Of a stretch of 32,000 nucleotides of DNA, positions 4,071-30,310 are shown piece after piece. Below the pieces are notes generated by a model. That model made no database searches and was not told the origin of the DNA. It saw only the letters and a list, made by a program, of their open reading frames with translations. The DNA is from Desulfovibrionales bacterium (GTDB taxonomy: Bacteria; Desulfobacterota; Desulfovibrionia; Desulfovibrionales; Desulfovibrionaceae). The position numbers were made by a program, and so were the translations under genes. How positions within the stretch are numbered: the stretch's first letter is position 1; every line of letters starts with the position of its first letter. Where the stretch lies: the NCBI GenBank assembly GCA_965112965.1, contig CBCOTE010000001.1, positions 1-32,000 of the forward strand, given 5' to 3'.

Positions 4071-7000
4071 AGGGCAGTCCAGTAGTTAAAAAACGAAATA
4101 AAAAAAACTAAGAGCCAGACAAGGCCAAATGGTACCGTTCCCCACAAAAAATAAAAGGTTAACCTTGACCAGAGAAAAAAATAACTAAACTATCCACACC
4201 AAAAATTCTTAGAACCATTCCTAGCCCTTAGTAGTGGCAGACCACGAACTCGGATATATTATAAAATTTGTCAGCTAGATGGCTCTTGAACAAGACCTCG
4301 TACAGCAGCTGATGACAGGACCAAACTTCAAACTCAAGAAACCTATAACTCGTGTTATTAGGCATAGACTCACATTAATCCTTTGGCCACGCTAGATATT
4401 GCAGTTCACACTGGAGCCAAGAGCCATGTAGGCGCTCTCGCAGACCTTTAATATCAACCGTCTCAATAAGTCGATAATAGTCATCCAAAAATATAAAAAC
4501 ACAATCTGTATATATAAATCTGAATGTAGGTAGTTGCGCGCAAGTTAGCACATAAGTTCTATATTGACCGGAATAAAATCCCACATGGGTAAAAATCGTG
4601 CGGGCAGAATTAGCACCATTTTTTAAGATACTAAAAATTCACTCGCCTTCGACATATTCCACGGTACAAAGTTTTCCCCATATCTTTGAACAGATAAGTT
4701 ACGGTATCAAATTAATCTTAGGGCAATTCTTCAAAGTAGCGGCACATACCCTACAATAGTATGGACGAAACCAGTTTCTTCTCACCTCTTTCGTTCTTAA
4801 TCTACCTGACACGGAAGAAAGTAGCCATTACAACGACAAAGTCTATACAGAAGATGAACGTCGAAGATTATGCACACAAAAAAATAACAGGAATTCTCGG
4901 ACTCCAATATTACGCAACTCGTCCATGATATCAAAAAATAAAACGTAGTCGAGAATATCTTGAAAGCCGTGGACTATATCCATAATAAACGCCTAGACCA
5001 TGGCAGAGACAGTTAATCGCGAAACACAAGAGGCATAAATGTCAAAGATACAATTACGGTATATAGTATCACCTAAAAAAACTAGTAAAATAAATTTTTA
5101 CCTGCACTTCAGTCCTCTAAGTCCTAGCTAAAGTCCCAAGGCTGGAATAAATAAGAACAGATTAAATAAATAGCTGGTCATTGTTCGATATCTAAGGCCT
5201 TGATCATATAACTAAACTTAGCCATATGTAGTCTCTAGGTGGGAGGCATATACGATATCGAATTGACAGAAATTATAAAGTACATCAATCTTTTACAACG
5301 CGGTCATGATATAGGATTAAATGTACCATCTATATAAAAAAAGTCAACGGGTAATGTCAATTTCTAAAAAAACTTCCGGACTGCAACAATTCACACTGCA
5401 AACGGTGTTAATGAGATATGTATCGTAGCCATTACGCATAATAATCATGAGGGCATTCAATATCTTTGAACGGATAGGCCGTTTACGGCCTCCTAGAGTC
5501 ACGGGATGCCTAACCTGGAAGCAGAACTCACTGCCCGCCCGGACGTCCATTTTACAATTAGGACTAATAAGAGCAATAGATCCGACATCGAAATGAATAG
5601 CAGACCAGATTTTCGCCGGCCAGCCAAGGCTGAACCATCCGACGCCTTACGGCCTTGACCATTGCTACCTTTAAGACTACAAAAAATTTCACGCGCCCGT
5701 AGCTCAACCGGATAGAGCGCCGGACTTCGAATCCGTAGGCCGCAGGTTCGAATCCTGCCGGGCGCACCACGAAAATCAAAGAATTACTGCCTGTCTAGAC
5801 TACAGCCCAGTTCTAATTGTATAAACGTCCTGACCGTCAAATATAAAAAACTACAGATTGTCCATAAGCATGGTAGACTTCCTTGGTCGATGATATAACC
5901 GGGGACGATGGATCTACTGAACTTCAGCCCGAATACCACCTCAACCATGGCCCTACCCATACTCTGCCCTGCCCACTAGAACCAAGAGAAGAGCGCTAAT
6001 CGGCCTTATAGCCTTCTATAATGAGTAAAGTCTATAGCGATTATTATTCACATCATACTATGCAAGATCGTCAAAAAAAATAAATCGCCTGCGGTAAACT
6101 CATCAAATCTATCGCCGCGTTGTTCGCCCAGCTGGTGCGTATAGCCTCTTATGCCGGCTACCTCTTCCGCACGAAACTAGCAATATGCATACGTCACACC
6201 TAATATATAATGCACCCCGGGCATGATATCTAGCCATTCCAAAAAAAAACAATCCACCCGTTTTTTAGGAATACAATGACATTCATCTCCCACATACTAA
6301 ATAAAAAACTATATAGAAAACCGATCAACCAATAAAAAAAGCTATTACTTACTGCTATCCTTTTATGAGCAACTTCAATTTCACAGTTTTATCTAAAGAA
6401 TGGCAGTGAAGCTATAATATTCCGCATGGAACCATTACAGACCACCGCGGCCATATTGTCTTCCAATATAATAGCCTCCTGTTTTGTGAACTAGTCCTGC
6501 AATCTAGTAATTTTTTTATACTCCTGCGATGTCTGCTAGCTTATAACTTAATAGTTGTGCTTATAGTCTGACTAAAAAAGGTGCATGTCAGAGCCGACAA
6601 AAAAACCAATAATTATTAACATATTGAATATGATGACTAAGATCATATTTCTATCTAGCTGACACTACTAACGACCGAGTTGCGGCCCTTATCTTATTTT
6701 GGAGACACGCCTCATTCTAACTTGAACTGATTAAACTTACGCCACAACGTAACTTGTGGATTGTCTAAGATCCAGGCAAGCAACCCTTTCATGTATCCCG
6801 AATATTCCAAAACAAACTCAATATGCCAGTGCCCTATCTACTCCAGGCTCAGAAGATGTTTTTTATTTTACAGCCCCGATGTCTATCTGCTGGATATTAC
6901 GGATAAGAATTGAACGGAGATTAATGACTCAAGGTCACACAGGACCATAGCATAACCCGCCATGTTTCTAGCTTACGCGCGTTAACTAAAAACCATCGAC

Positions 7001-8800
7001 CATAAGAAAAATGTAAAGTCCAGACTATTAGATAGCATGAAGCAGCTTCGCCTGTATAAAAAAAATAAAATATTTCTAAATCTCGTCTAGTCTAACCGAA
7101 CGCACTATACAAGTCGACGCGATCCTCTGTGGCGCTCGATGACCAAATAGATCATGGCCAGCTCCACTCCAGTGCTTTTATCTACTAAAAGACTTATGGG
7201 AAGCACTCCGGATCGACACTGTTGCCTTGCCCATAGCACGGCCCGGATACACGGTGCTCATGCCCTGTCTGGTCTCAGCAACCCAAACTAGGCCTAGTGA
7301 CATGCGTCGTATTCTCGAACAGATTCAGCAATGTCTGCTACAAATATAGTGATGAATCCAGACTCGACTCGTTTCTTCGTACGTAGTTTCAAATTCATCT
7401 TCAGCTGTAACGCCATTGCCTTCAACTATCTAGCTTAAACGAATAGGATCCAAAACAAGCAAATTACATCTTCGGCCGGAGAACTCTGAAAATACCGTAC
7501 GGGAACTATATCGCATGGCCCATTTGGTATCCTGTCATCTGTACAACGATATAATTGTATAGAACTACAATCAAACTTAGAATATCCTCTTGACGATTAA
7601 AGGTGCCCTAAATGGTATCCTGACGAGTATGTAGCTACTAACATTTTCTGATATTATCTGAAGATTGAGCTTTTAGTGTGGCTTACCGTACTGGACATAG
7701 TCGTGGGGCTACCTACCCCAGACGAAATGACAGACATAATCACGGTCATGGCTAAGCTGCCGCCCCTCCAAAAAAAGGCAACACTCACAAAACATAATCA
7801 AATATACACGGACTCTGATGACTATTGCATATTATAACTAAGTCTATTTTAGACGCTAAGTTATACTTGTCTAACCGTAACAAAAATATGCATTGTACTA
7901 TTAAAATACCTACTCCTGCCCAAATACTATTAGATCCTCTAGGCTACTGGATATAAATGGTCATAACCGGGAAAAATCCTCAAAATAACTCTTTGCTGCT
8001 TCGACCTCAACTTGATATTCGCGCTCTTCAGTTTCTACACACACTGTAATAAACTATTCACCCTCTCCCGTAACCAAGTAGACCATCTATCATCTCGAAC
8101 TACAACACCATACACTACTTAAACATTATTTTTATGCCCGACCTGTAATCGCATCTACTGGGTCAGTTTACAAAAAAAAACGACTAACCCCGACGCCGAT
8201 TCAATAGCTTTCTGGCCAGCTTAAACTATGTGCCAATGTCAATATCTTTAGACTGAGATAAACTAATAATAACTCTGGCTACAAAAAAATATGCCTTCTA
8301 CCGCTTACATTTGGCTAATCGTTAGGATGTAATCAACGGACAACTACGGCAACTTACTGATATTGCGTAAAAAATAATGCTTTTTTTAGGAATAGCCTTA
8401 TAATTGCGTAGAATAGTCAGGTGTCCAAATACATACAAGATGCCCCCCCGAAAAACAACCCGACTCCTAATAGGAGATTAACGTACAGACCTATGGACGA
8501 CAAAAAATAAACGACAAGTTAACTTAATTCGGCGAGTTCAAGTATAAAAGAAATATAATAAGTACCAATTATACATTGAACCATGCAAAAACCGCTATTG
8601 GTACCATACTGCAAATATTTTTTTATAATTAACTACACCATTTGGCAGCTTACAGAATACGACAACTATTATAGAATCGTACAGAACTATTTAAGGCAAC
8701 TAGCATAAAATAAAAGAATTGGCCAAGACCGGACACTAAACCGAGTGGCTGCTGTTGACGGTCTGGAGGATAGGAAGATAACAATGTTCCAGACAGAAAA
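4071..8800. other. ORF-poor, A-rich tract with a single embedded tRNA (probable eroded DNA)
   Basis: 4.7 kb whose longest ORFs are 64-71 aa without motifs. Dense A7-A9 runs, e.g. 6073-6080, 6241-6249, 7058-7065, 8172-8180. The only clearly functional element is the tRNA at 5693-5769. Confidence 0.5.
5693..5769 (+). tRNA. tRNA-Arg, anticodon TCG (UCG), CCA encoded
   Basis: 77-nt cloverleaf folded by hand. Acceptor stem GCGCCCG/CGGGCGC. D arm GCTC-AACCGGATA-GAGC. Anticodon arm CCGGA-CTTCGAA-TCCGT with anticodon TCG. Variable loop AGGCC. T arm GCAGG-TTCGAAT-CCTGC. Discriminator A followed by CCA. Close in layout to E. coli tRNA-Arg. Confidence 0.92.
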
Positions 8801-10117
8801 TTAGAATGGGTTATAGGTCTTCGTGTCGGTATAATGCATATACCCCACACTTACCCCCACTCGCAAGCCATGACCACTACGAATAGGAGCAAGAAACACG
8901 TCCAAATTTTGTTGATAATTAACACTATATCCTTCCACTACATAGATACTGCCATCCATACCCAGAAAACGTTGAAAAAGCATCTGAGGATCAGTCAAAT
9001 TGAAAAGCAAAGTGAAGACTTTGCCGCCGTTGCCGCCCAAGTCCAATCCGATGGTCGGACTCTGCCAGTAGATATGGCGCGTCATACCATTCTTGAACCA
9101 TAAGTCACCTTCGCCGTAACGAAAACCTACGATCACTGCACCGGTACTTTCCTCACCCATAATGTAGCCGGTAGGCTGACCGTGGTCCTTAAAAATTTTA
9201 TCTAGAATCTGGGCCAGAGCCAAAGAATATTCGCCAAAAAAACGCTCAATCTCTTGGCGCATCTCATCCTTGGTAAAAGTCTCATGCCCTCCATAACGAT
9301 TCTTGATGCGCGGTTCGCGGAGCATAGTGTCGTCCTTTTTCTGGCCCTGTCCCTGAGCATAACGGGCTTGGATATCGATGTCAGGACCTAGCTGCGATTC
9401 TGCCGGTAGCTGGGATGACTCACCTTTGTATGGCGATCCTGGCTGTGACTGCCAGATAGGAGCCTGAGCTGGCTGAACTGGCTGTGACTGCCAGATAGGA
9501 GCCTGAGCTGGCTGAACTGGCTGTGACTGCCAGATAGGAGCCTGAGCTGGCTGAACTGGCTGTGACTGCCAGATAGGAGCCTGAGCTGGCTGAACTGGCT
9601 GTGACTGCCAGATAGGAGCCTGAGCTGGCTGAACTGGCTGTGACTGCCAGATAGGAGCCTGAGCTGGCTGAACTGGCTGTGACTGCCAGATAGGAGCCTG
9701 AGCTGGCTGAACTGGCTGTGACTGCCAGATAGGAGCCTGAGCTGGCTGAACTGGCTGTGACTGCCAGATAGGAGCCTGAGCTGGCTGAACTGGCTGTGAC
9801 TGCCAGATAGGAGCCTGAGCTGGCTGAACTGGCTGTGACTGCCAGATAGGAGCCTGAGCTGGCTGAACTGGCTGTGACTGCCAGATAGGAGCCTGAGCTG
9901 GCTGAACTGGCTGTGACTGCCAGATAGGAGCCTGAGCTGGCTGAACTGGCTGTGACTGCCAGATAGGAGCCTGAGCTGGCTGAACTGGCTGTGACTGCCA
10001 GATAGGAGCCTGAGCTGGCTGAACTGGCTGAATTTTGAAGTCTAATGATTTAGCGCCCGTAGGTAACGCATCGAGTATCCAGTAGCAAACGAACAGAAGA
10101 ACAAAAAAATTATACAT
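8801..10117 (-). CDS. Secreted tandem-repeat protein with a beta-rich C-terminal domain resembling DUF1134/EipA
   Basis: 438-aa ORF with ATG start and TAA stop. Hydrophobic N-terminal signal-like segment MYNFFVLLFVCYWILDALPTGA. Then 15 x PVQPAQAPIWQSQ. The ~150-aa C-terminal domain (GAVIVGFRYGEGDLWFKNG...YWQSPTIGLDLGGNGG...IRSGHGLRVGVSVGYMHYT...NPF) recalls the DUF1134/EipA periplasmic family from memory. Confidence 0.8.
   Translation of the reverse strand: MYNFFVLLFVCYWILDALPTGAKSLDFKIQPVQPAQAPIWQSQPVQPAQAPIWQSQPVQPAQAPIWQSQPVQPAQAPIWQSQPVQPAQAPIWQSQPVQPAQAPIWQSQPVQPAQAPIWQSQPVQPAQAPIWQSQPVQPAQAPIWQSQPVQPAQAPIWQSQPVQPAQAPIWQSQPVQPAQAPIWQSQPVQPAQAPIWQSQPVQPAQAPIWQSQPVQPAQAPIWQSQPGSPYKGESSQLPAESQLGPDIDIQARYAQGQGQKKDDTMLREPRIKNRYGGHETFTKDEMRQEIERFFGEYSLALAQILDKIFKDHGQPTGYIMGEESTGAVIVGFRYGEGDLWFKNGMTRHIYWQSPTIGLDLGGNGGKVFTLLFNLTDPQMLFQRFLGMDGSIYVVEGYSVNYQQNLDVFLAPIRSGHGLRVGVSVGYMHYTDTKTYNPF
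9441..10025 (-). repeat. Perfect tandem repeat, 15 copies of a 39-bp unit, in frame within the CDS
   Basis: The plus-strand unit ggctgtgactgccagataggagcctgagctggctgaact starts at 9441 and recurs every 39 bp up to 9987. I saw no substitution in any copy. A partial extra copy, ggctga, lies at 10026-10031. Confidence 0.95.
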
Positions 10118-13100
10118 AGCGTGGTCTCTAGCTACTAAACAGACCAGTAGCAGGTCAGTGGGTGTATATTTACCTAAGTTTCTTCAACCGCAATCATCAA
10201 TAATACAAGCATCTAGCACTGAAATAAAAAATTTACATCCACTACTATATGCCTAAGCATGCCAAAACAAGAGAACTTCTGCGATGCTATTATAGACTAT
10301 ATCAATCCATCACGATAATTTAACGTTAATCTGCATCCTCTTTTTTTTATAAAAAATCTTTATTTAAAAACCTCTGCCGACTCCTCTGACCACACGCCCA
10401 CCACCCCGATTATCAAACCGATGGCTCTCTGGTGCAAGACATAATCCTTAACTATCAAATATTATGACTAAACTTAATTTTTATAATGTTGTCTTAATAA
10501 ATCCTAAAATACGAGAAAAGATGCCACACATACTATTCTGTCTTCAGTCTCGACTTGCAACACCGTGAGAAAGAAAATCTCTGTAAAACCTAAATACCGC
10601 AACAGGCACAAAAAAATCACGTAAAAGACGGATGCGGCTTTCCAAGCTGATTACAGCCATCGCAAAAAAAATCATACCTAAGCTGCGGCCTATACGGCGT
10701 GTCGCCTGACCTACTCAACATAATTTCTCTCAGCCACCCATTAAAAAGGCTCTGCTTTCCAGCGCCGACGAATATTTTGAACACCCACTTTTGCTAACAC
10801 AGAAGTAAAAAACAATCTTCTTACATATTTGGAATAGTCCGCTGCTGACACTATGTCCGATAAGCTCGGCCACAATATCGCCCCCCCCAGTCTCATAAAA
10901 TTCATGCCTATCTGAGTAACCGGGGACCGTATCTTCATAATATGCAACATAAAATAACAGCATAACCTCTGAGAACTCAAGATTATTTTTTATCTAATTA
11001 CTTGGCCTACTCACCCCGCCACCGTAACTAGCCCTTTCGGAATTGGCTATATCCAGAGATTTGTCAAGTAAATCCAAAGCTAGACCCTTCACAACTCCTA
11101 TGTTAAATACGATTATCTGGCTATCGCCACCTCCATAGTAACCCTTGCCCTTCAGTTTAACGCCTATTTTCTCAGCAACTTGATAGGGTTGTTGTGCGAT
11201 ACTATATAATCCTTAGATAATCATTTGTCGACCTAATGGCTGGAATCTCCGCCACCGCCTGTCTCACCATCGCCAATTAATCTATTAATTTCTGTTATCT
11301 TTACGACCAAGACAAAATTGAGTTCATATTGTGGGTGAAAACATGAAAATACCACATATCATATATAGTTCCATTGGCATCAGCGGTTCCGGGATCCAAC
11401 GAATACTGCACCAGTACCCCCCTGCAAAAAAAAATAACGTGGTTCTATTTACAACTCTACTAACTGTCGGATAAACTTAATAGCCACTGGCTTATGCTTC
11501 GAGACGGCCAGGCACTTTGACAGACTAATCTTAAAAATCAACACTAAGTATCTAATAGCCAATACTTAGGCTTATGTCAGCCCGATGCTATACTTAGCCA
11601 TCATCTCAATTCCAATAAGTTGACCTTCATCGAACCCTAACGTCATACTCATAGACCAGCAATATCTTCTCCAATTCGGGACTATTTAGGACCACATGAG
11701 TTTCATAAACACACCTTACTGCAGTTCTAAATTGGGAACCACCCAGTAGATCCTCGGTCGGCATATATAAGATTATCACGCCTTATCACATTTTACGTAC
11801 TCACAAATTCAAACCTTGTGCTACATCGATTTTGACCTCATATATGAAAATCAGCCTCAGCGCAACAGACCTACAACTTTACTTACACCATTGCAGGAAC
11901 CTAATGCACGCCATCATGATGAGTAAACATCCGGCATACTAGGTCTGTTATCACTAACCCCATGGTCCCTCAATCTTAACATTGATATTCCAGTTCGCCT
12001 AGTTTATATGCTTGGTATAGAGGATCAGATTAAAGTGGCATTGTCCCCACGCTGGCCATGTTACAGCACGCCCTAAGTATACTCGGTGCAGTTCCTACCC
12101 TAACGATGACAAGCAATAATTTTCGGTCAATCACTCCTATGCGCTCGGCTGTAGAAAACTTAAACATGACCATAAAAGCTTTAAATGGCCGTAGTGCTCA
12201 TCCTTTAGCGTGCTAAGCTCTTATGTTCTAAAGCCCAGAGCCACCGACATACACCGCATAAGCCAACTTTTTTCAGGGACTATAAATACTATATATTTCA
12301 CGCCGCCTCCGAGCCCAGATCCCAGGGCTGTCATGACCCGGCCAGAGGTATTGAAGACCATACCACTTACTTACGCCACCTACTGGAACCTGGACATAGA
12401 TCTTAACGAGGATATACTGAACGACGGAGAGACCCTACAACACTTGAACAGTCTGTCAATTGACTGGATATATTCTACAGCAAACTTAGGCCTTTTTGTC
12501 CATCCAATTACTAACTGATGAACTCTAATAGTAAACCCTCAGACGTATGGAGGGGGGGCCGGCATAGTATTTAGACAGGCCTAAGCCTAGCCATACCCCA
12601 CTCTCACTCCTCCTTTCATCTAAAAAACTAAACCGGGAACGATGCTAGATAAAAAAATAAATTGCTCCATTGCTATGGAATCTAAAAATGCCGTATAACA
12701 TATCATGAAACACTATCCGTATAAATTGAGACCATACACTTAACTTCATGACTAAGGACGGGCCCGCTCATGTTGTAGCCACAGCAGGCCTGCTATATAG
12801 CCACCATAGCCATCGCTCTGGACCAACTCTGGTTCTGTGCCAGATCTCGCCACATCTTAATTGTAACTACCTGCCTAGAGTAGCCAAACCACTATGCAAT
12901 CATGATATAGAGGTTTTAAAAAGCCGTGTGCTCAAACTTAGGATAGATTTTAAATACTGTGGACCGACAGGAACTCGTGATCTGCGGATGTGCTCTAACT
13001 AACTACTGGTATTATCCATCTTCACTATATTACTCATAGTGTCCTTATGAATGTATCTCCGTTCGACTGTCCAAAACAACGACTACCAAAAAAAATGCAG

Positions 13101-13292
13101 AGACTGGCAACGGGCCAGCTTTTAAGACCAATACGCTCCAGCCAGATGGTGACGAGAGGGATATCTGGACCGAGCTTAGGCCTAGCCGTATGCATCGTGT
13201 ATAACCTATGTCTGGCTACAATGGGCCAGACTTCCTTCTAGATCATAAAATATGTTCAAAAAACTAATGTCGATTCCTTTATTCTGCCATGG
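10118..13292. other. ORF-poor tract containing pseudogene relics
   Basis: 3.2 kb without a convincing ORF. Contains the broken minus-strand frame at 10730-11420 and only short, motif-less plus-strand ORFs. Confidence 0.5.
10730..11420 (-). pseudogene. Relic of a minus-strand gene of unknown family (frameshifts plus one in-frame TAG)
   Basis: Hand translation shows 11212-10730 is one 161-codon frame with a single internal TAG at 10994-10996 and no start codon at its 5' end. Protein-like pieces lie upstream in two other frames: 11420-11301 (GVLVQYSLDPGTADANGTIYDMWYFHVFTHNMNSILSWS) and 11280-11233 (LIGDGETGGGGDSSH). A GGG(D/V) motif recurs: GETGGGGD, GYYGGGD, SYGGGV, YETGGGD. Confidence 0.5.
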
Positions 13293-20888: not shown

Positions 20889-20935
20889 GCTTCCCTGGGG
20901 CGGCCGAATAGAAAACGTCAGACCATCCCGCTTTT

Positions 20936-20964
20936 TTTATATCGCCATCGGAACATCTTTTCAA
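20936..20964 (-). promoter_or_regulatory. Candidate sigma70-type promoter upstream of coaX
   Basis: On the minus strand: TTGAAA (20964-20959), a 17-nt spacer, then TATAAA (20941-20936). This places it about 45 nt upstream of the coaX ATG at 20888. Sequence match only. Confidence 0.35.
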
Positions 20965-23365
20965 GTATTTTTCGATCCTTCCAAAAAAGCTCGTCCGTCC
21001 TCACACCTCAACAAACTGCGCTGCTTTGACAGGTCTACTTCTCTCGCTAACAATATATGAATGGGAACAAAAAAAAATAATCTACCAGTCTCTTTGGTAT
21101 AATTTATTGACTTACGTGGCTATGGCCATGTCCGACCTCAAAGCGGTCTAGTCTTCATAAATTCTTTTAGACGAAGTGTTCGCCGTAATCATGTGGGAAC
21201 TTGTATGTCTGACGATGGGCGAATCCCTAAGGTGCTATCGGCGAAATGCCTAGCCTGACAAACGGAGATGGTTGGGCTATTTGCGAATATAACCTGCTTG
21301 TCTGATGCCCGGCAGCTATGCCCCATCTGAAACGTGTCCGTAAACATAAACCGTGACCTTGCTAGCTACAAAATAAACGCGGCTCATTTGCGGTATTCTC
21401 TGTGGCAGACTTCATCATATTCATGGTCCGCACCTAGACCATGACGATCTTTTGCGCCAGCCCAGCCAGCTTCATTGTAGCCCAGTACGTCCCGACTATT
21501 GTCCAAAAAAACATATGGTCACGACATATTTCACGATTGATATTGGCATTCTTAAAAACGCCCCATACCACGCAGTCAAATATCTTATAATATAATCACC
21601 ATTAAGAAAATGAAACAATATAACATGAACATACCTAGATCATAGCAGTCAGATTCAACGCCATCAGCGACCTGGCTGCCTACGTCCTGGCCAACGTCAA
21701 AATACCTGTTCGGTGGAACAAATCAAGCTTACACGCCGGAACAGATCTAAACTATCAACTGCTGGTATGAAAAAAATCGAGGACTATTTTTTTACGCTAA
21801 ATTTGTCTAATATTTGAATTATGACATCTCAACTACTGGCTGAAGCTTAAGCACATAGCCTTCAATCTGTTATTAAAGCTAACTAAGGAGCACCCCTTAC
21901 GTTATTAATACGTCTAAAGCATAGACAGCCCATTCTATGTTAACAGGCCAAAGCATATACTATAGTGCTCCTATATACCTTTCAGCTGCTAACGCAGTAT
22001 AGTATCGGTACGAACATGGCCCATAGTTTACTAGACCTTGTCATCCAGTACGACCAAATAAAAAAGCTCCTGGATGTAGCCAAAGTACCAGTATCACAGT
22101 TTCCCATGAACATCCTCTTCCCCAACCAAACACACCCATTGCCCCCGGCCAGCCGTCGCTTTACTATCAGCTGCCGGAAGTTAAAGTAGAGCTGATAACT
22201 AGCCCCCGCAGCCATTCTCAACCACCTTTGGCAAGGCTGGCTGCCATATATCTATGGTATATAATGTAGAACAAGTCCATCTTGAGGTATGGCCGTACTT
22301 GTTCTAAGGTATAGGCCAAAGACTTCCCATAGACCTTCACGGACACTACAGTATTCAGGATATTCCTAGACAAAGACGGCCTAGCGACATGCTAAGAATA
22401 AACTATAGATATCGTAATCGGCCAGTTATAAGTTGTACGTCCCGGACCTTGATCCTGGTCTTGGGCGCTATCGAAACATAGCGACTCCTTGCTCAACTCT
22501 GCCTATCAGACTTTCACAGACGACCTAAACAATAAGCATGGGCTGTTGGATGCGGAGTTCATAAAAAAAACCTTTACGTCGGCATTATGTTCTTCTTTAG
22601 GAAAAGCTGGCCACCTACTGGGCCATCTTAATGAATAAACATTGACTTAATCGCGTCAAAGCCGGCACTATACTTCGACCGCAGGCTAGCTATATACTCT
22701 TACAGAGAATCGAGCTTCACCAAATGAAAATGGCCATATTTTTGTCATTAGTATTACTATGAGAGCTATAGCCATGAAAGCAGAATCTTCAAGAAATATT
22801 ATAGCAGCCACCCATGCCCGGATTATAGCCGTGCAGTTGCCGCAGTCAAAGAAACCACTAACCATAGATCTACAAGAAACATCTTCGGCCTATCCAAAGC
22901 GCATGTCGAAATGCATACAGATCTGTCCAACTATCCTTTTGTTGGAAGAATATTCAAAATATATTTAGAACTAAGCCGCCAATCCAATGTAACCCGGCCG
23001 AGACGACACTCTTCACCTACCTACTGCAACTTCGATAGTTAAAACTAATATATAAGACGCAGACTGCATAAAAAAAGAATCCAATCAGCTCGATCGTTAG
23101 TGTCAACTACCGCTACCACGCTATCCTTAATCTATTATGCATCTACACATCACCGCCACCAGCGCGCTGCTCGCCCAGGACTGCAACTTCTAGCCCTCGC
23201 TGACTATTCAAGCACTGTCTCTTGCAGGCCGCCGCAGGTATTATCGGCCGGTCCTGAATGTTTCCTTTGGTCCCGCGTCCCACGAAACACGCTTAGTTAA
23301 CAATTCCTCATGAAACAAAACAAAATTTATTCTGTCTAATTTCTCTTTTTTCGGTTAAATTACAA

Positions 23366-23715
23366 GTCCTTTTCTTTTTTTTCGGGATACCCATCATAAA
23401 AATTGTCATATCTTTGACTATAGTCACGTTGCTGACCGCTTCCCCGTCCTAACAAAACTTATCCAATCTCAAGTAGCAGCAAAAGCGACACGTCCAAAGC
23501 CTCATTGTTTTTTTGCATCAAAAAAAACTACCCTTCCTGCCCGACTGCGTACGTCAGCAGCCAAAAAAAACAAATAGCCCCTCATCGCCCCGAGATGCAC
23601 TCATAGCAACCGCAATCCTTTCTTAAGAGAGACTCCATGCAACGCATAATATTTCTGACTATATTCCGCGTTGCCGACCGCTTCTCAGGCCCTTACTGAC
23701 TTCTCCAACTTCACG
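23366..23715. repeat. Degenerate direct repeat, two copies about 241 bp apart
   Basis: Core copy A at 23411-23443 is tctttgactatagtcacgttgctgaccgcttcc. Core copy B at 23652-23685 is tttctgactatattccgcgttgccgaccgcttct. They share tgactata, then 17 nt with 2 mismatches. Weaker similarity extends about 40 bp on both flanks. Confidence 0.5.
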
Positions 23716-24865
23716 GCCAAAATAAATGCTCAAGATGGTCCTAACTCACATTAAGAAAGCCTGATTTATAGCCAAAACTGAAGCTAAATTAAAACTAGAG
23801 TTAAATTGGTCAAAAAGCTGCATCATCTGCACGCCAACTATCAAGGATAGGTAACTCGATGCTCCTCAGCAAGTGCCATCCATAGTGATCGCCCACCGAA
23901 TACGCCACGCTCGGCATCCGTATACAACAATAGTAACGCCAACAGCTTGCAGTTACGTGGTCCAGGAATCCTGAGATATAATGATTCAGCCAAAGACGTA
24001 TCTGTACGAACAGTCCATTTTTCACGAGATACATCGATACACTCAGTCATCAATAAAAATAAAAAAGAACCTAGCCATTTCGACCGTTTAGGTACTAGTT
24101 GAAATCTAGCCCGGGTATACCAAAAAAAAGCACGCACGACAAATATTCGGCGCGTAATTCATAGTCCGGACTAACGTAAAAGGTCCTTAACAGGCTCTTT
24201 TAACTTCTAAAGTACCGGGCCACCATTATCCCTACCTCGTAACCATACACTGTACAATGAACACTATTCTCACTCGCTGATACTCAAGCCATGAAAATGA
24301 CCAGGTTGTAGTTAAATATCTAGATCCTAAACAAGACTGCCTGATGCTACAAAAAAAAGACAAGATAGCCGACCAGCGCATTAAGACCTCACATGACCAG
24401 TAAACTCATATGGATAATTCTCAGAATAAAAAATGCCGTGGTTACAGCAAAAAAATAATGACACTGTCTTTAGAGCCGGCATGAACTGCCAGTCAGGTGA
24501 GGCCGTAGCCACGCCGATGCAGTCGACCTCTGGTCACCCAATAGAACGCGCTGACACTCGGAAGATATTCAGACATTTAAATAAAGCGTCAATTACGATT
24601 TAGACACTGATTGTATAAGTCTACAGACACAAAAGAAGATACAAAAAACACAGCAGTTGATGATCAATAACATAAGGTCGTAACATAAATAAAAGGAATG
24701 ACTTAGCGGCCCTAGCCAGAATTTCTATGAAAACGCAGTAAAAAATGTAAAGCAATTAATAAGGATGGAATTAATACAACACAAAAAACTTAAGATACCA
24801 AAAAAATTGAAAAAATTGTGTCAAATTATAGAGGAGTGGTCTGCAAAAAAACTGTGGAATGGATT

Positions 24866-25342: not shown

Positions 25343-26244
25343 GTGTTACTATTCTATTATTCTGCGGAATGTAAGTATAAACAATTAAAAAAAATGTACA
25401 AGGCCAACCAGAGCAACTACTTCCAAAAGGATCTGACTTTACATCTGGGGAACCAAGAGCTCAGACTCACAAAATATACTTGGACCATCGCGGCGAAATA
25501 TATAATCTACGCTACGGTGAGAACCTTGATCAGTCAGCAGCGCTCTATGGGCTCACCAGTGGTAGGCTGACCCTAGATAACGTGATCTTCCACGGCCCTG
25601 GACAAAAAAACTCGTGACTGCCTTATCTAAAGAATATATGTTACAAATCAAAGAAGATCAACCTCACAGACTTGTAAAATTACATCAACATACTTCAGCA
25701 ACTTACAACAAAATAAGAGACCGTAGTGCTCAAGTACAACAACTCAAGTGGCGCAGCTTGGATCAACGAAGGCATACTGCGACGCTGGAGCGCGCTGTAC
25801 AAGCCAACTTCATCACGGCCTTCAGTGCATTATTGTAGCGAACCGATTCTATATACGGCCACCTATGAAATCATCGATACCAACTACTTTGAGGTAGCGG
25901 CTGCACCTGATTACAAGTCAAGGGCACTAAGCACTATCAAGAAACGAAAAAACTTGCGCGTCCTGCGCATCCCAGACTTGGCTAACCTTGCCGACCTAGC
26001 CTGCAAACACTTCCTGGACGTCAAATCACTTATGGACGACGACATAGTGTTCCAGGCATCAACCTGCAATCGCACCAGCATAACTGCAGACTTCCTGCCC
26101 GCCACGGCGAAACATGCTTGTCGTATTCTCAAAGCCCGCACCATCACCCTTACCGAGACCAACGACCTGCTCTTTATCTGGGCCGTGGAAACCAGAATAA
26201 CATCCAGCTCGGTTATTTTCGCTAAACATGGCATGCCCCCCTAG
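25343..26244 (+). pseudogene. Possible frameshifted plus-strand gene (three staggered ORFs); the last ORF may still be functional
   Basis: ORFs 25343-25570, 25614-25838 and 25726-26244 follow one another in the three different plus frames. The 172-aa last ORF is protein-like (…EIIDTNYFEVAAAPDYKSRALSTIKKRKNLRVLRIPDLANLADLACKHFLDVKSLMDDD…). No family recognised. Confidence 0.3.
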
Positions 26245-29511: not shown

Positions 29512-29587
29512 GAAATATTGAAAATTTGGCCCTAGGCCTTCCATGCCCTACAAGATCACTATGAACCATCATAACATCATCAACAAT

Positions 29588-30310
29588 ATGAACCGCCGTA
29601 CTTTTCTCAACCTTGCTGCAGGTGTCGCCGCTACAGCTAGTATCTTCAGATTCACTACCTCCGTTCGAGCCCAGGATCACCCAGACATGTTAGCTGCCAG
29701 CCCCATCGCTCTACCACCCCTGCCCTGGCCTATAGACTCTCTGGCCACAACCATATCGGCCCGAACCATTGAATTCCACTACGGCAAACACCACTCCGCC
29801 TATGTCAAAAAAACTAACGAACTCCTTAAAGACTTCCATGTTGAGGCTACCCAGCTAGAAGATATTATCCTCCAAACTGTCAACGATCCAACTAAGATTT
29901 CCCTCTTCAATAATGCCGCCCAGGTTTGGAACCACACCTTCTTTTGGCACTCCCTTCGGTCCAAAAATAACCTCGAACCAACTAATAATCTACGTAAAGC
30001 CATTGTTGATATGTTCGGCTCCGTGGAAAACTGTAAACGCAAACTCGCCGAACTCGCTATAAGTCGCTTTGGCAGCGGCTGGGTTTGGCTCTCCATAAAG
30101 GACGGTATTCTAGCCTGCACGGCTACTGCTAACGCCGACACCCCACTGGCACACGGTTTCGCACCCCTACTCTGCATCGACGTTTGGGAGCATGCCTACT
30201 ACCTTGACTACCAAAACCGCAGAGCCGATTATATCCATATGGTCCTCGACAACATTCTCAATTGGGATTTTGCCGCTCAAAATTTCGCCGCTGCCACGCA
30301 CATGATATAA
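29588..30310 (+). CDS. sodB: Fe/Mn-family superoxide dismutase with a twin-arginine (Tat) signal peptide
   Basis: ORF opens at 29543. The start is chosen at M16 because MNRRTFLNLAAGVAATASIFRFTTSVRA is a textbook Tat signal. SOD motifs: HYGKHH, WNHTFFW and DVWEHAYYLDYQNRR. A periplasmic Fe-SOD is known in Desulfovibrio. Confidence 0.9.
   Translation: MNRRTFLNLAAGVAATASIFRFTTSVRAQDHPDMLAASPIALPPLPWPIDSLATTISARTIEFHYGKHHSAYVKKTNELLKDFHVEATQLEDIILQTVNDPTKISLFNNAAQVWNHTFFWHSLRSKNNLEPTNNLRKAIVDMFGSVENCKRKLAELAISRFGSGWVWLSIKDGILACTATANADTPLAHGFAPLLCIDVWEHAYYLDYQNRRADYIHMVLDNILNWDFAAQNFAAATHMI

What the first reader, a model, noticed from the sequence alone, without database searches (positions are those of the whole stretch)
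9441..10025. Fifteen base-perfect 39-bp in-frame tandem repeats in a secreted protein gene
The 39-bp unit repeats 15 times head to tail with no substitution I can see. It encodes 195 aa of PVQPAQAPIWQSQ between a signal-like N-terminus and a folded C-terminal domain.

Neutral DNA in this window is heavily mutated. Zero divergence among 15 copies therefore implies very recent expansion or ongoing homogenisation by slippage or recombination. That is the behaviour of a copy-number-variable (VNTR, contingency-like) envelope or surface protein.

This is the one place in the window where sequence is being actively generated rather than lost. At 585 bp of perfect repeat it is also an assembly-collapse risk.
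Basis: seen in the sequence. Interest (0 to 1): 0.7.

Follow-up and report, generated by a model that had tools for sequence, protein, structure and literature searches.

The report
Perfect 13-residue repeat linker in EipA
A bacterial endosymbiont gene for a periplasmic envelope protein (EipA family) has had its floppy proline/glutamine-rich linker rebuilt from fifteen identical 39-base copies: a real, lineage-specific repeat expansion of an ordinary and already familiar kind.

Summary
TRF finds one array, 9439-10030, period 39, 15.2 copies, 100% identity and no indels. It lies in frame in a 438-aa ORF on the minus strand (8801-10117).

The protein has three parts:
- a hydrophobic N-terminal helix;
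- a roughly 260-residue stretch with no predicted structure, made of 15x PVQPAQAPIWQSQ plus 54 unique residues;
- a confidently folded EipA/DUF1134 beta-barrel (Pfam E 7e-61; PDB 5UC0 E 3e-40).

The protein is identical to CAM2056521.1 from a "Desulfovibrionales bacterium". This is probably DsD-1, the magnetosome-forming endosymbiont of a freshwater ciliate, whose coding density is 57%.

Across the EipA family, the linker ahead of the domain runs from 0 to about 420 residues and is often P/Q/A-rich. None of the 150 best relatives has a comparable repeat, and no relative exceeds 58% identity. So the array is lineage-specific and amplified inside an already length-tolerant linker. CAGCCAG microhomology at its borders points to slippage.

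"Recent expansion or homogenisation" is supported. "Contingency-like surface protein" is not: the unit is in frame, EipA is periplasmic, and no population data exist.

The assembly was hybrid SPAdes on amplified DNA. Both the exact copy number and the perfect identity could partly be products of the assembler.

This is a new member of a known kind, of modest interest.

The parts
8801..10117 (-). Complete ORF of 438 codons plus stop (stop at 8801-8803): an EipA-family protein with a repeat linker. It is identical to NCBI CAM2056521.1, 'conserved hypothetical protein [Desulfovibrionales bacterium]'.
10052..10117 (-). Residues 1-22, MYNFFVLLFVCYWILDALPTGA: a hydrophobic N-terminal helix, taken as a putative Sec signal peptide or signal anchor. 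It is atypical because no K/R precedes the core. The following AKSLDF aligns with the post-cleavage KERSLSD/QERSITD of homologues.
   Evidence: helix at residues 2-17
9439..10030 (-). Tandem array: 15 identical 39-bp units plus a 7-nt partial unit (CAGCCAG). It encodes Q30-P226, that is (PVQPAQAPIWQSQ)x15. GC is 59%. No secondary structure is predicted and pLDDT is about 40-58.
9281..9442 (-). Unique linker remainder, residues 226-279 (PGSPYKGESSQLPAESQLGPDIDIQARYAQGQGQKKDDTMLREPRIKNRYGGHE). It is non-repetitive and predicted to be disordered.
8804..9280 (-). EipA/DUF1134 (PF06577) beta-barrel domain, residues 280-438. It covers the full Pfam profile (2-160 of 160) and the full crystallised domain of B. 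abortus EipA (5UC0). pLDDT is about 85-97. All 31 columns that are invariant in 11 homologues are retained.

Best explanation
The gene encodes an EipA/DUF1134-family envelope protein of a genome-reduced Desulfovibrionales endosymbiont, probably DsD-1 of a magnetotactic ciliate. Its architecture is the one seen in several Desulfovibrionales and other relatives: leader peptide, intrinsically disordered P/Q/A-rich linker, then an eight-stranded beta-barrel.

In this lineage a 39-bp piece of that linker was duplicated and then amplified to about 15 copies. The piece is bounded by the 7-nt direct repeat CAGCCAG and itself contains a QPx-QPx sub-repeat. The likely mechanism is slipped-strand mispairing and/or unequal recombination. 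The linker is now almost entirely one 13-residue unit.

The expansion is young or is being continuously homogenised. It is tolerated because linker length and sequence are barely constrained in this family, and drift in an endosymbiont makes fixation of such changes easy. The likely role of the array is that of the ancestral linker: a flexible, extended spacer ahead of the periplasmic EipA barrel.

Shown: the array, its reading frame, the domain identity, the predicted disorder, the lineage specificity and the family-wide linker variability.

Inferred: the slippage mechanism, near-neutrality, periplasmic location and the identity of the organism.
For: - Array and frame.
- Domain identity: Pfam EipA E 7e-61, 205 bits against a cut-off of 30.8; 5UC0 E 2.9e-40 over the whole chain; Foldseek 5UC0 E 9e-13, TM 0.79 normalised to the target.
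- AlphaFold: helix 2-17, no secondary structure across 18-282 with low pLDDT, and a confident barrel at 283-438.
- Purifying selection on the domain: 31 of 31 columns invariant in 11 homologues are kept.
- Family linker variability: the best 150 of 1095 HMMER hits are 128-578 aa long, and the domain starts anywhere from residue 1 (truncated fragments) to about 420. Linkers are P/Q/A-rich in P0002-5, P0013, P0018 and P0044. Several Desulfovibrionales homologues have no linker at all.
- Small tandem duplications occur in other linkers: P0018 QPAQAAPQYG x2-3 and P0062 QPSYK x3-4. Nothing is comparable to 15 perfect copies.
- The P0013 linker contains QPAQEPIRRPVQSRPVQPG and SQSQLPW, which resemble the unit QPAQAPIWQSQPVQPAQ. 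This fits amplification from an ancestral linker segment.
- CAGCCAG is present at the start of every unit and directly after the last one.
- Single-stranded units fold into hairpins (CTGGC-N7-GCCAG), with z of -4.8 and -4.3.
- Best genome hits are Desulfovibrionales: MAG D1M01_27 at 58% and a Desulfohalobiaceae MAG at 56%.
- Organism: CAM2056521.1 is labelled 'Desulfovibrionales bacterium'. The window's GC of about 45% and its low gene density match DsD-1, which has 45.7% GC and 57.6% coding density.
Against: - No read-level or population data exist, so neither youth nor the exact copy number is verified.
- The similarity of the unit to the P0013 linker lies in low-complexity sequence and is not statistically secure.
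- The leader lacks the positive n-region that 46 of the 49 aligned homologues have. Export, and hence periplasmic location, is unproven.
- Near-neutrality is an argument from family variability, not a measurement.
- The hairpin z-scores are inflated, because the shuffles destroy the periodicity of a repeated sequence.
- No promoter-like site or clear Shine-Dalgarno sequence was found upstream of the ATG.
Confidence: 0.7

Rival explanations
1. Adaptive, copy-number-variable (VNTR or contingency-like) envelope protein. Under this reading, repeat number is actively varied within the symbiont population to tune the reach of EipA across the periplasm or an interaction with the host, and the copies are kept identical by frequent gain and loss.
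For: - The copies are perfectly identical.
- The unit can form hairpins.
- The genome retains rec, ruv and mut genes according to PMC13103400.
Against: - The unit is a multiple of 3, so no ON/OFF switching is possible.
- EipA is periplasmic rather than surface-exposed in Brucella.
- The family tolerates linkers from 0 to about 420 aa, so length looks unconstrained rather than tuned.
- There is no second allele anywhere. The exact unit is absent from metagenome contigs, and the only protein above 52% identity in the protein collections is the sequence itself.
- This is the only tandem array in the 32 kb.
Confidence: 0.12
2. The array is real, but its exact form (15 copies, zero variants) is partly made by the assembler. 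[quoted passage not shown] The unit sequence then comes from one collapsed loop, and the number of turns comes from noisy R9.4.1 Nanopore reads of MDA-amplified DNA.
For: - Assembly method: MDA, Illumina plus Nanopore R9.4.1, and hybrid SPAdes 3.13 --sc.
- Exact tandem repeats appear as cycles in de Bruijn graphs. Short reads give only the pattern and long reads give the length (PMC4582210).
- At 585 bp the array exceeds the length of a NovaSeq read. This last point rests on my own knowledge.
Against: - Coverage of the bin was about 160x and Nanopore N50 was about 5 kb, so spanning reads should exist.
- The array is in frame, and both flanks are colinear with homologues exactly where a P/Q linker is expected. 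A wholly artefactual insertion is therefore very unlikely.
- This rival changes the numbers, not the nature of the feature.
Confidence: 0.3
3. A gene on its way to becoming a pseudogene. The leader has degenerated, the protein is no longer exported or needed, and the repeat expansion is a runaway event in an unconstrained ORF.
For: - There is no K/R n-region, unlike 46 of the 49 aligned homologues.
- No promoter-like site lies upstream of the ATG and there is no obvious Shine-Dalgarno sequence.
- The genome is rich in decayed DNA, with 57% coding density. The neighbouring regions 4071-8800 and 10118-13292 hold no long ORFs.
Against: - The 438-codon ORF is intact.
- All 31 family-invariant columns and 57 of 70 near-invariant columns are retained. 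The 13 exceptions are 3 positions in the N-terminal/signal region, where only the C-terminal 213 residues of the window protein were aligned, 1 linker position, and 9 mostly conservative replacements inside the EipA domain.
- The full-length Pfam match scores 205 bits and the fold is predicted with confidence.
- The hydrophobic core of the leader is as strong as in homologues, with a Kyte-Doolittle mean of 2.75 over 12 residues.
Confidence: 0.1

Closest known systems
EipA (envelope integrity protein A, DUF1134/PF06577) of Brucella abortus, PDB 5UC0
   Same: The C-terminal 160 residues are homologous over the whole crystallised domain: 38% identity in the structural alignment, phmmer E 2.9e-40 and the same beta-barrel fold. 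An N-terminal hydrophobic leader precedes the domain.
   Different: Brucella EipA is 198 aa, with the domain directly after the signal peptide. It is CtrA-regulated and lies next to chpT-ctrA. Here there is a 260-residue disordered linker with 15 perfect repeats, in a Desulfovibrionales genome, with no such neighbours. Function here is untested.
EipA-family proteins with P/Q/A-rich linkers in Desulfovibrionales and related MAGs (P0002-5, P0011 / Fundidesulfovibrio agrisoli, P0013, P0018)
   Same: They share the three-part architecture: signal peptide, a conserved 'K/Q-E-R-S-L/I-S/T-D' motif after it, a low-complexity P/Q/A linker of 60-150 aa, and the EipA domain. The P0013 linker carries motifs that resemble the repeat unit.
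   Different: Their linkers are non-repetitive or have only 2-4 short imperfect repeats. Identity in the domain is at most 58%. The upstream gene pair seen in those loci (an AMIN-domain gene and a 361-370-aa gene) is absent here.
Preprolysostaphin of Staphylococcus simulans (N-terminal repeat propeptide)
   Same: The layout is identical: leader peptide, then 15 tandem repeats of 13 residues (195 aa), then the functional domain. A variant with a shorter repeat region has been described (PMC4034026). This accounts for the weak Pfam Lysostaphin_N hit.
   Different: There is no homology: the score is 20.4 bits against a cut-off of 60 and the unit is different (AEVETSKAPVENT-type, recalled from memory). 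Lysostaphin is a Gram-positive secreted peptidase whose repeats are a cleaved propeptide. Nothing here suggests proteolytic activation.
Tandem repeats of variable copy number in Ehrlichia ruminantium
   Same: It is an intracellular bacterium with an unusually low coding ratio of about 64%, in which tandem repeats actively expand and contract (PMC10710844).
   Different: Those repeats are numerous and mostly non-coding. Here there is one coding array in 32 kb, and variability has not been shown.

Membership tests
EipA / DUF1134 (PF06577) | Match to the Pfam model above the gathering score over the full domain | tested here: met
   E 7e-61, 205.1 bits against a cut-off of 30.8; profile positions 2-160 of 160; residues 280-438
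EipA / DUF1134 (PF06577) | Compact eight-stranded beta-barrel fold as in 5UC0 | tested here: met
   phmmer against the PDB finds 5uc0_A, E 2.9e-40, chain residues 4-163. The AlphaFold domain has pLDDT 85-97. Foldseek finds 5uc0_A, E 9.3e-13, TM(target) 0.79, followed by the R. equi Vap proteins, as reported for EipA.
EipA / DUF1134 (PF06577) | Sec signal peptide and periplasmic location | tested here: inconclusive
   There is a hydrophobic helix at residues 2-17 with a Kyte-Doolittle mean of 2.75, in the position of the homologues' signal peptides. There is no K/R n-region and no classic AXA site. No signal-peptide predictor or experiment was available.
EipA orthologue in the alphaproteobacterial sense (CtrA regulon, next to chpT-ctrA) | Linkage to chpT/ctrA | tested here: not met
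   The neighbouring intact genes are rlmN, dinB, an FtsJ-type methyltransferase, folD, eno and coaX. No response regulator or phosphotransferase is nearby. This feature belongs to the Brucella/Caulobacter orthologues, not to the Pfam family.
In-frame coding minisatellite (VNTR-type locus) | Head-to-tail units of at least 10 bp, with unit length a multiple of 3 and the reading frame preserved | tested here: met
   39 bp x 15.2 copies, 100% identity, in frame with the start codon and the domain
In-frame coding minisatellite (VNTR-type locus) | Copy number differs between individuals or strains | not testable with these tools
   No second allele was found. The unit is absent from metagenome contigs. 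The protein cluster has one member. The only proteins above 52% identity are the sequence itself.
Contingency locus (phase-variable simple-sequence repeat) | A change in repeat number switches expression by frameshift or by altered promoter spacing | tested here: not met
   The unit is 39 = 3 x 13 and lies inside the ORF, so any gain or loss of whole units keeps the frame.
Lysostaphin_N (PF25533) | Pfam match above the gathering score | tested here: not met
   20.4 bits against a cut-off of 60. The resemblance lies in the 13-residue periodicity only.

The most novel reading that the evidence does not exclude
The array is a functional, selectively maintained length module. Under this reading an obligate endosymbiont that has lost most envelope and motility functions tunes the reach of its EipA barrel by adding or dropping 13-residue units, possibly as an uncleaved, membrane-anchored tether spanning the periplasm. 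Copy number would then differ between symbiont populations of different ciliate hosts or sites, and the locus would serve both as an adaptive envelope 'ruler' and as a ready-made strain marker for an uncultured magnetotactic symbiosis.
Probability: 0.1. Interest if true: 0.5.

Novelty: new member of a known kind. Interest (0 to 1): 0.3.

Why it matters
There are three practical points.

1. This is the only tandem array in the window, and it offers a simple PCR length marker. It could be used to ask whether the uncultured magnetotactic endosymbiont population is clonal within a ciliate and how it differs between sites.

2. It shows that slippage or recombination still creates sequence in a genome that is otherwise decaying, with 57% coding density.

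3. It flags a spot where the published assembly, both in copy number and in perfect identity, should be checked against reads.

Biologically it adds an extreme case to the hypervariable linker of the poorly understood EipA family. It does not reveal a new mechanism.

Tried and rejected
- A homologous-protein search with the C-terminal 212 aa alone returned nothing, although the full-length query had found homologues. I treat this as a limit of the word index. The exhaustive HMMER search replaced it.
- A genome-contig scan with the single protein found no relative. The alignment-based scan worked. The source genome itself is not in that collection.
- The look-up of encoding contigs for P0001 reported it not on record, so no independent assembly of the locus is available.
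- An exact-unit search of metagenome contigs gave 0 hits.
- The synteny test used genes flanking eipA in L001 (histidine kinase, dynamin-like, AMIN-domain, 361-aa and others), run by tblastn against the window. Only the EipA gene itself matched.
- NCBIfam has no family for the protein.
- CRISPR was considered and rejected: the spacing equals the unit length, so there are no spacers.
- A non-coding RNA was considered and rejected: Rfam finds only the tRNA.
- A translated repeat on the + strand was considered and rejected: there are stops in all three frames of the unit.
- Homology to lysostaphin was considered and rejected: the score is below the cut-off.

Full report
**1. The observation**

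Tandem Repeats Finder reports exactly one array in the 32-kb window: 9439-10030, period 39, 15.2 copies, 100% matches and no indels. A copy-by-copy comparison gives 0 mismatches in all 15 full units and in the trailing 7-nt partial unit. The 78 bases on either side show no in-register similarity to the unit. So the array has sharp edges and no decayed outer copies.

The array lies on the minus strand inside a 438-codon ORF, 8801-10117. It is in frame with both the ATG and the C-terminal domain and encodes (PVQPAQAPIWQSQ)x15. The + strand has stops in all three frames of the unit, as can be read from the sequence.

**2. What the gene is**

- Pfam places residues 280-438 in EipA/DUF1134 (PF06577), with E 7e-61, 205 bits against a cut-off of 30.8, and the full profile covered.
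- phmmer against PDB sequences finds only 5UC0, the crystal structure of Brucella abortus EipA. The E-value is 2.9e-40 and the match covers the whole crystallised chain.
- An AlphaFold model built on a 50-sequence alignment shows a helix at residues 2-17. It shows no secondary structure and pLDDT of about 40-58 from 18 to 282, and a confident barrel (pLDDT 85-97) from 283 to 438.
- Foldseek recovers 5UC0 (E 9e-13, TM 0.79 on the target) and then the Rhodococcus equi Vap proteins. That is the same distant resemblance reported for EipA (bioRxiv 10.1101/442541).
- In Brucella, EipA is a soluble periplasmic protein needed for envelope-stress resistance. PhoA fusions show that it is exported to the periplasm but not released from the cell.
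- All 31 columns that are invariant in 11 homologues are retained here, and 57 of 70 near-invariant columns. The domain therefore looks to be under purifying selection.

**3. The leader**

Residues 4-15 form a hydrophobic core as strong as in homologues, with a Kyte-Doolittle mean of 2.75. But no K/R precedes it, whereas 47 of the 50 aligned sequences (46 of the 49 homologues) have one. The segment after it, AKSLDF, aligns with the conserved post-signal motif KERSLSD/QERSITD of homologues. So it is a homologous leader that has become atypical. Export is likely but unproven. An uncleaved signal anchor is possible.

**4. The organism**

The protein is 100% identical to NCBI CAM2056521.1, 'conserved hypothetical protein [Desulfovibrionales bacterium]', on a 193,607-bp contig. 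It is the only member of its cluster.

The window has few long ORFs separated by gene-poor stretches. GC is 50-56% in genes and 38-44% between them, about 45% overall. This matches DsD-1, the magnetosome-forming Desulfovibrionaceae endosymbiont of a freshwater prostomatean ciliate. DsD-1 has 2.25 Mb in 26 contigs, 45.7% GC, 57.6% coding density and MicroScope annotation (PMC13103400). I could not link the accession to that BioProject directly, so the assignment is an inference.

**5. Relatives**

An exhaustive HMMER search with the 213 C-terminal residues against 1.84 billion representatives gives 1095 hits. The best non-self hit is only 51-52% identical. A scan of GTDB species genomes puts Desulfovibrionales first, which is consistent with vertical descent. 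The top hits are MAG D1M01_27 at 58%, a Desulfohalobiaceae MAG at 56%, Fundidesulfovibrio agrisoli, Desulfonatronum and a Desulfovibrionaceae MAG.

The family is strikingly variable ahead of the domain:
- The listed proteins are 128-578 aa long, and in the full-length ones the domain starts anywhere from about residue 30 to about 420.
- Several Desulfovibrionales homologues have no linker at all.
- Others have 60-150 residues of P/Q/A-rich low-complexity sequence. These include P0002-5, F. agrisoli/P0011, P0013 and P0018.
- None of the 150 best hits contains a long perfect repeat. The nearest cases are 2-4 short units: QPAQAAPQYG in P0018 and QPSYK in P0062.
- The P0013 linker contains QPAQEPIRRPVQSRPVQPG and SQSQLPW, which resemble the unit QPAQAPIWQSQPVQPAQ. 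This is suggestive but lies in low-complexity sequence.

The array is thus a lineage-specific amplification inside a pre-existing linker that tolerates changes in length.

**6. Mechanism (inferred)**

Every unit begins with CAGCCAG, and the same heptamer follows the last unit. Within the unit, CAGCCAGTT-CAGCCAGCT is a 9-bp sub-repeat encoding QPV-QPA. A first duplication between CAGCCAG copies 39 bp apart, followed by slippage or unequal exchange, accounts for the structure.

Three-unit single strands fold into hairpins (CTGGC-N7-GCCAG), with z of -4.8 and -4.3 against shuffles. That would favour slipped intermediates. The z-scores are inflated, though, because shuffling destroys the periodicity.

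With zero differences in 585 bp, a star phylogeny gives a Poisson 95% upper bound of about 0.005 substitutions per site per copy. This is my own arithmetic, with no tool call. The domain, by contrast, has diverged by more than 40% in amino acids from every known relative. Hence 'recent or homogenised' is justified, provided the assembly is right.

**7. Assembly caveat**

The genome came from MDA-amplified DNA, NovaSeq reads and R9.4.1 Nanopore reads (N50 4.97 kb), assembled with hybrid SPAdes 3.13 --sc. Exact tandem repeats form cycles in de Bruijn graphs. Short reads yield only the pattern and long reads yield the length (PMC4582210).

A looped path is written out as identical copies. Rare variant copies can be removed as bulges, and the number of turns rests on noisy reads. 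This last point is my own knowledge of the assembler and was not tested. The array as such is very unlikely to be artefactual: it is in frame, and both flanks are colinear with homologues at the expected linker position. But 'exactly 15' and 'base-perfect' need confirmation at read level.

**8.

'Very recent expansion or homogenisation' and 'assembly-collapse risk' stand.

'Contingency-like' does not stand, because a 3n unit cannot switch the frame. 'Surface protein' does not stand either, because EipA is periplasmic.

Copy-number variability cannot be tested:
- The unit is absent from metagenome contigs.
- The protein has no second allele.
- No independent contig is on record.

The family's unconstrained linker makes a tolerated, near-neutral expansion under endosymbiont drift the simpler explanation. 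An adaptive length module remains possible, at about 0.1.

**9. Comparison with known systems**

The domain is a bona fide EipA-family member. The repeat belongs to the well-known class of in-frame coding minisatellites in secreted or envelope proteins.

A neat architectural twin is preprolysostaphin: leader, then 15 tandem repeats of 13 residues (195 aa), then the enzyme, with a shorter variant reported (PMC4034026). This explains the sub-threshold Pfam Lysostaphin_N hit (20 bits against 60). It is analogy, not homology.

Ehrlichia ruminantium is the precedent for an intracellular bacterium that has a low coding ratio and actively changing tandem repeats (PMC10710844).

**10. Verdict**

The feature is real, correctly located and correctly described at the sequence level. 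It is best read as a young slippage-driven expansion of the disordered linker of a periplasmic EipA-family protein in a genome-reduced endosymbiont. It is a new member of a known kind, of modest interest (0.3). Its main uses are as a candidate population marker and as an assembly checkpoint.

Noticed in passing
window 1-32000: Gene density is very low. Only about a dozen convincing genes are present: rlmN, eipA, dinB, an FtsJ/TlyA-type methyltransferase, folD, eno, coaX, an RNB-domain RNase, ogt and sodB. They are separated by multi-kb stretches without long ORFs, for example 4071-8800, 10118-13292 and 20889-24865. Genes have 50-56% GC and the gaps 38-44%. This fits AT-drifting pseudogene remnants that have not yet been deleted.
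   Followed up: partly
window 1-32000: Strand asymmetry is uniformly strong. GC skew is negative in 31 of 32 1-kb bins (cumulative -4.95) and AT skew is positive in 31 of 32. The single exception for both is the bin that holds the repeat array. The whole window appears to lie on one replichore with an unusually marked mutational strand bias.
   Followed up: no
window 25726-26244 (+): A 172-aa ORF matches only the middle of the AICARFT/IMPCHase (purH) profile, positions 180-290 of 311, E 7e-10. It looks like a purH pseudogene fragment just upstream of the RNB-domain gene.
   Followed up: no
window 29543-30310 (+): The Fe/Mn superoxide dismutase ORF is 255 aa, and the Sod_Fe_N domain starts only at residue 57. 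This is either an N-terminal extension or export signal, or an over-long ORF call with a later true start.
   Followed up: no
window 5693-5769 (+): A lone tRNA-Arg (anticodon TCG) sits in the middle of a 4.7-kb stretch without long ORFs. It is the only Rfam or ARAGORN hit in the window.
   Followed up: no
L001 5827-8963; L002; L003; L005 547-2575: In free-living relatives that have P-rich-linker EipA proteins, eipA directly follows (and by 4 nt overlaps) a conserved 361-370-aa gene with no Pfam hit, preceded in L001 and L002 by an AMIN-domain gene. This may be an envelope operon. No trace of these partners is left in the window.
   Followed up: partly
P0007 (601 aa, NCBI): An unrelated PF26766 protein surfaced only because it carries about 7 near-identical 29-residue repeats beginning with SQP[AV]QPAQ (SQPAQPAQVNCWDNFVFNTTTCSWNNTG). 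This shows that QPAQ-type words in repeats attract spurious word-index hits.
   Followed up: no
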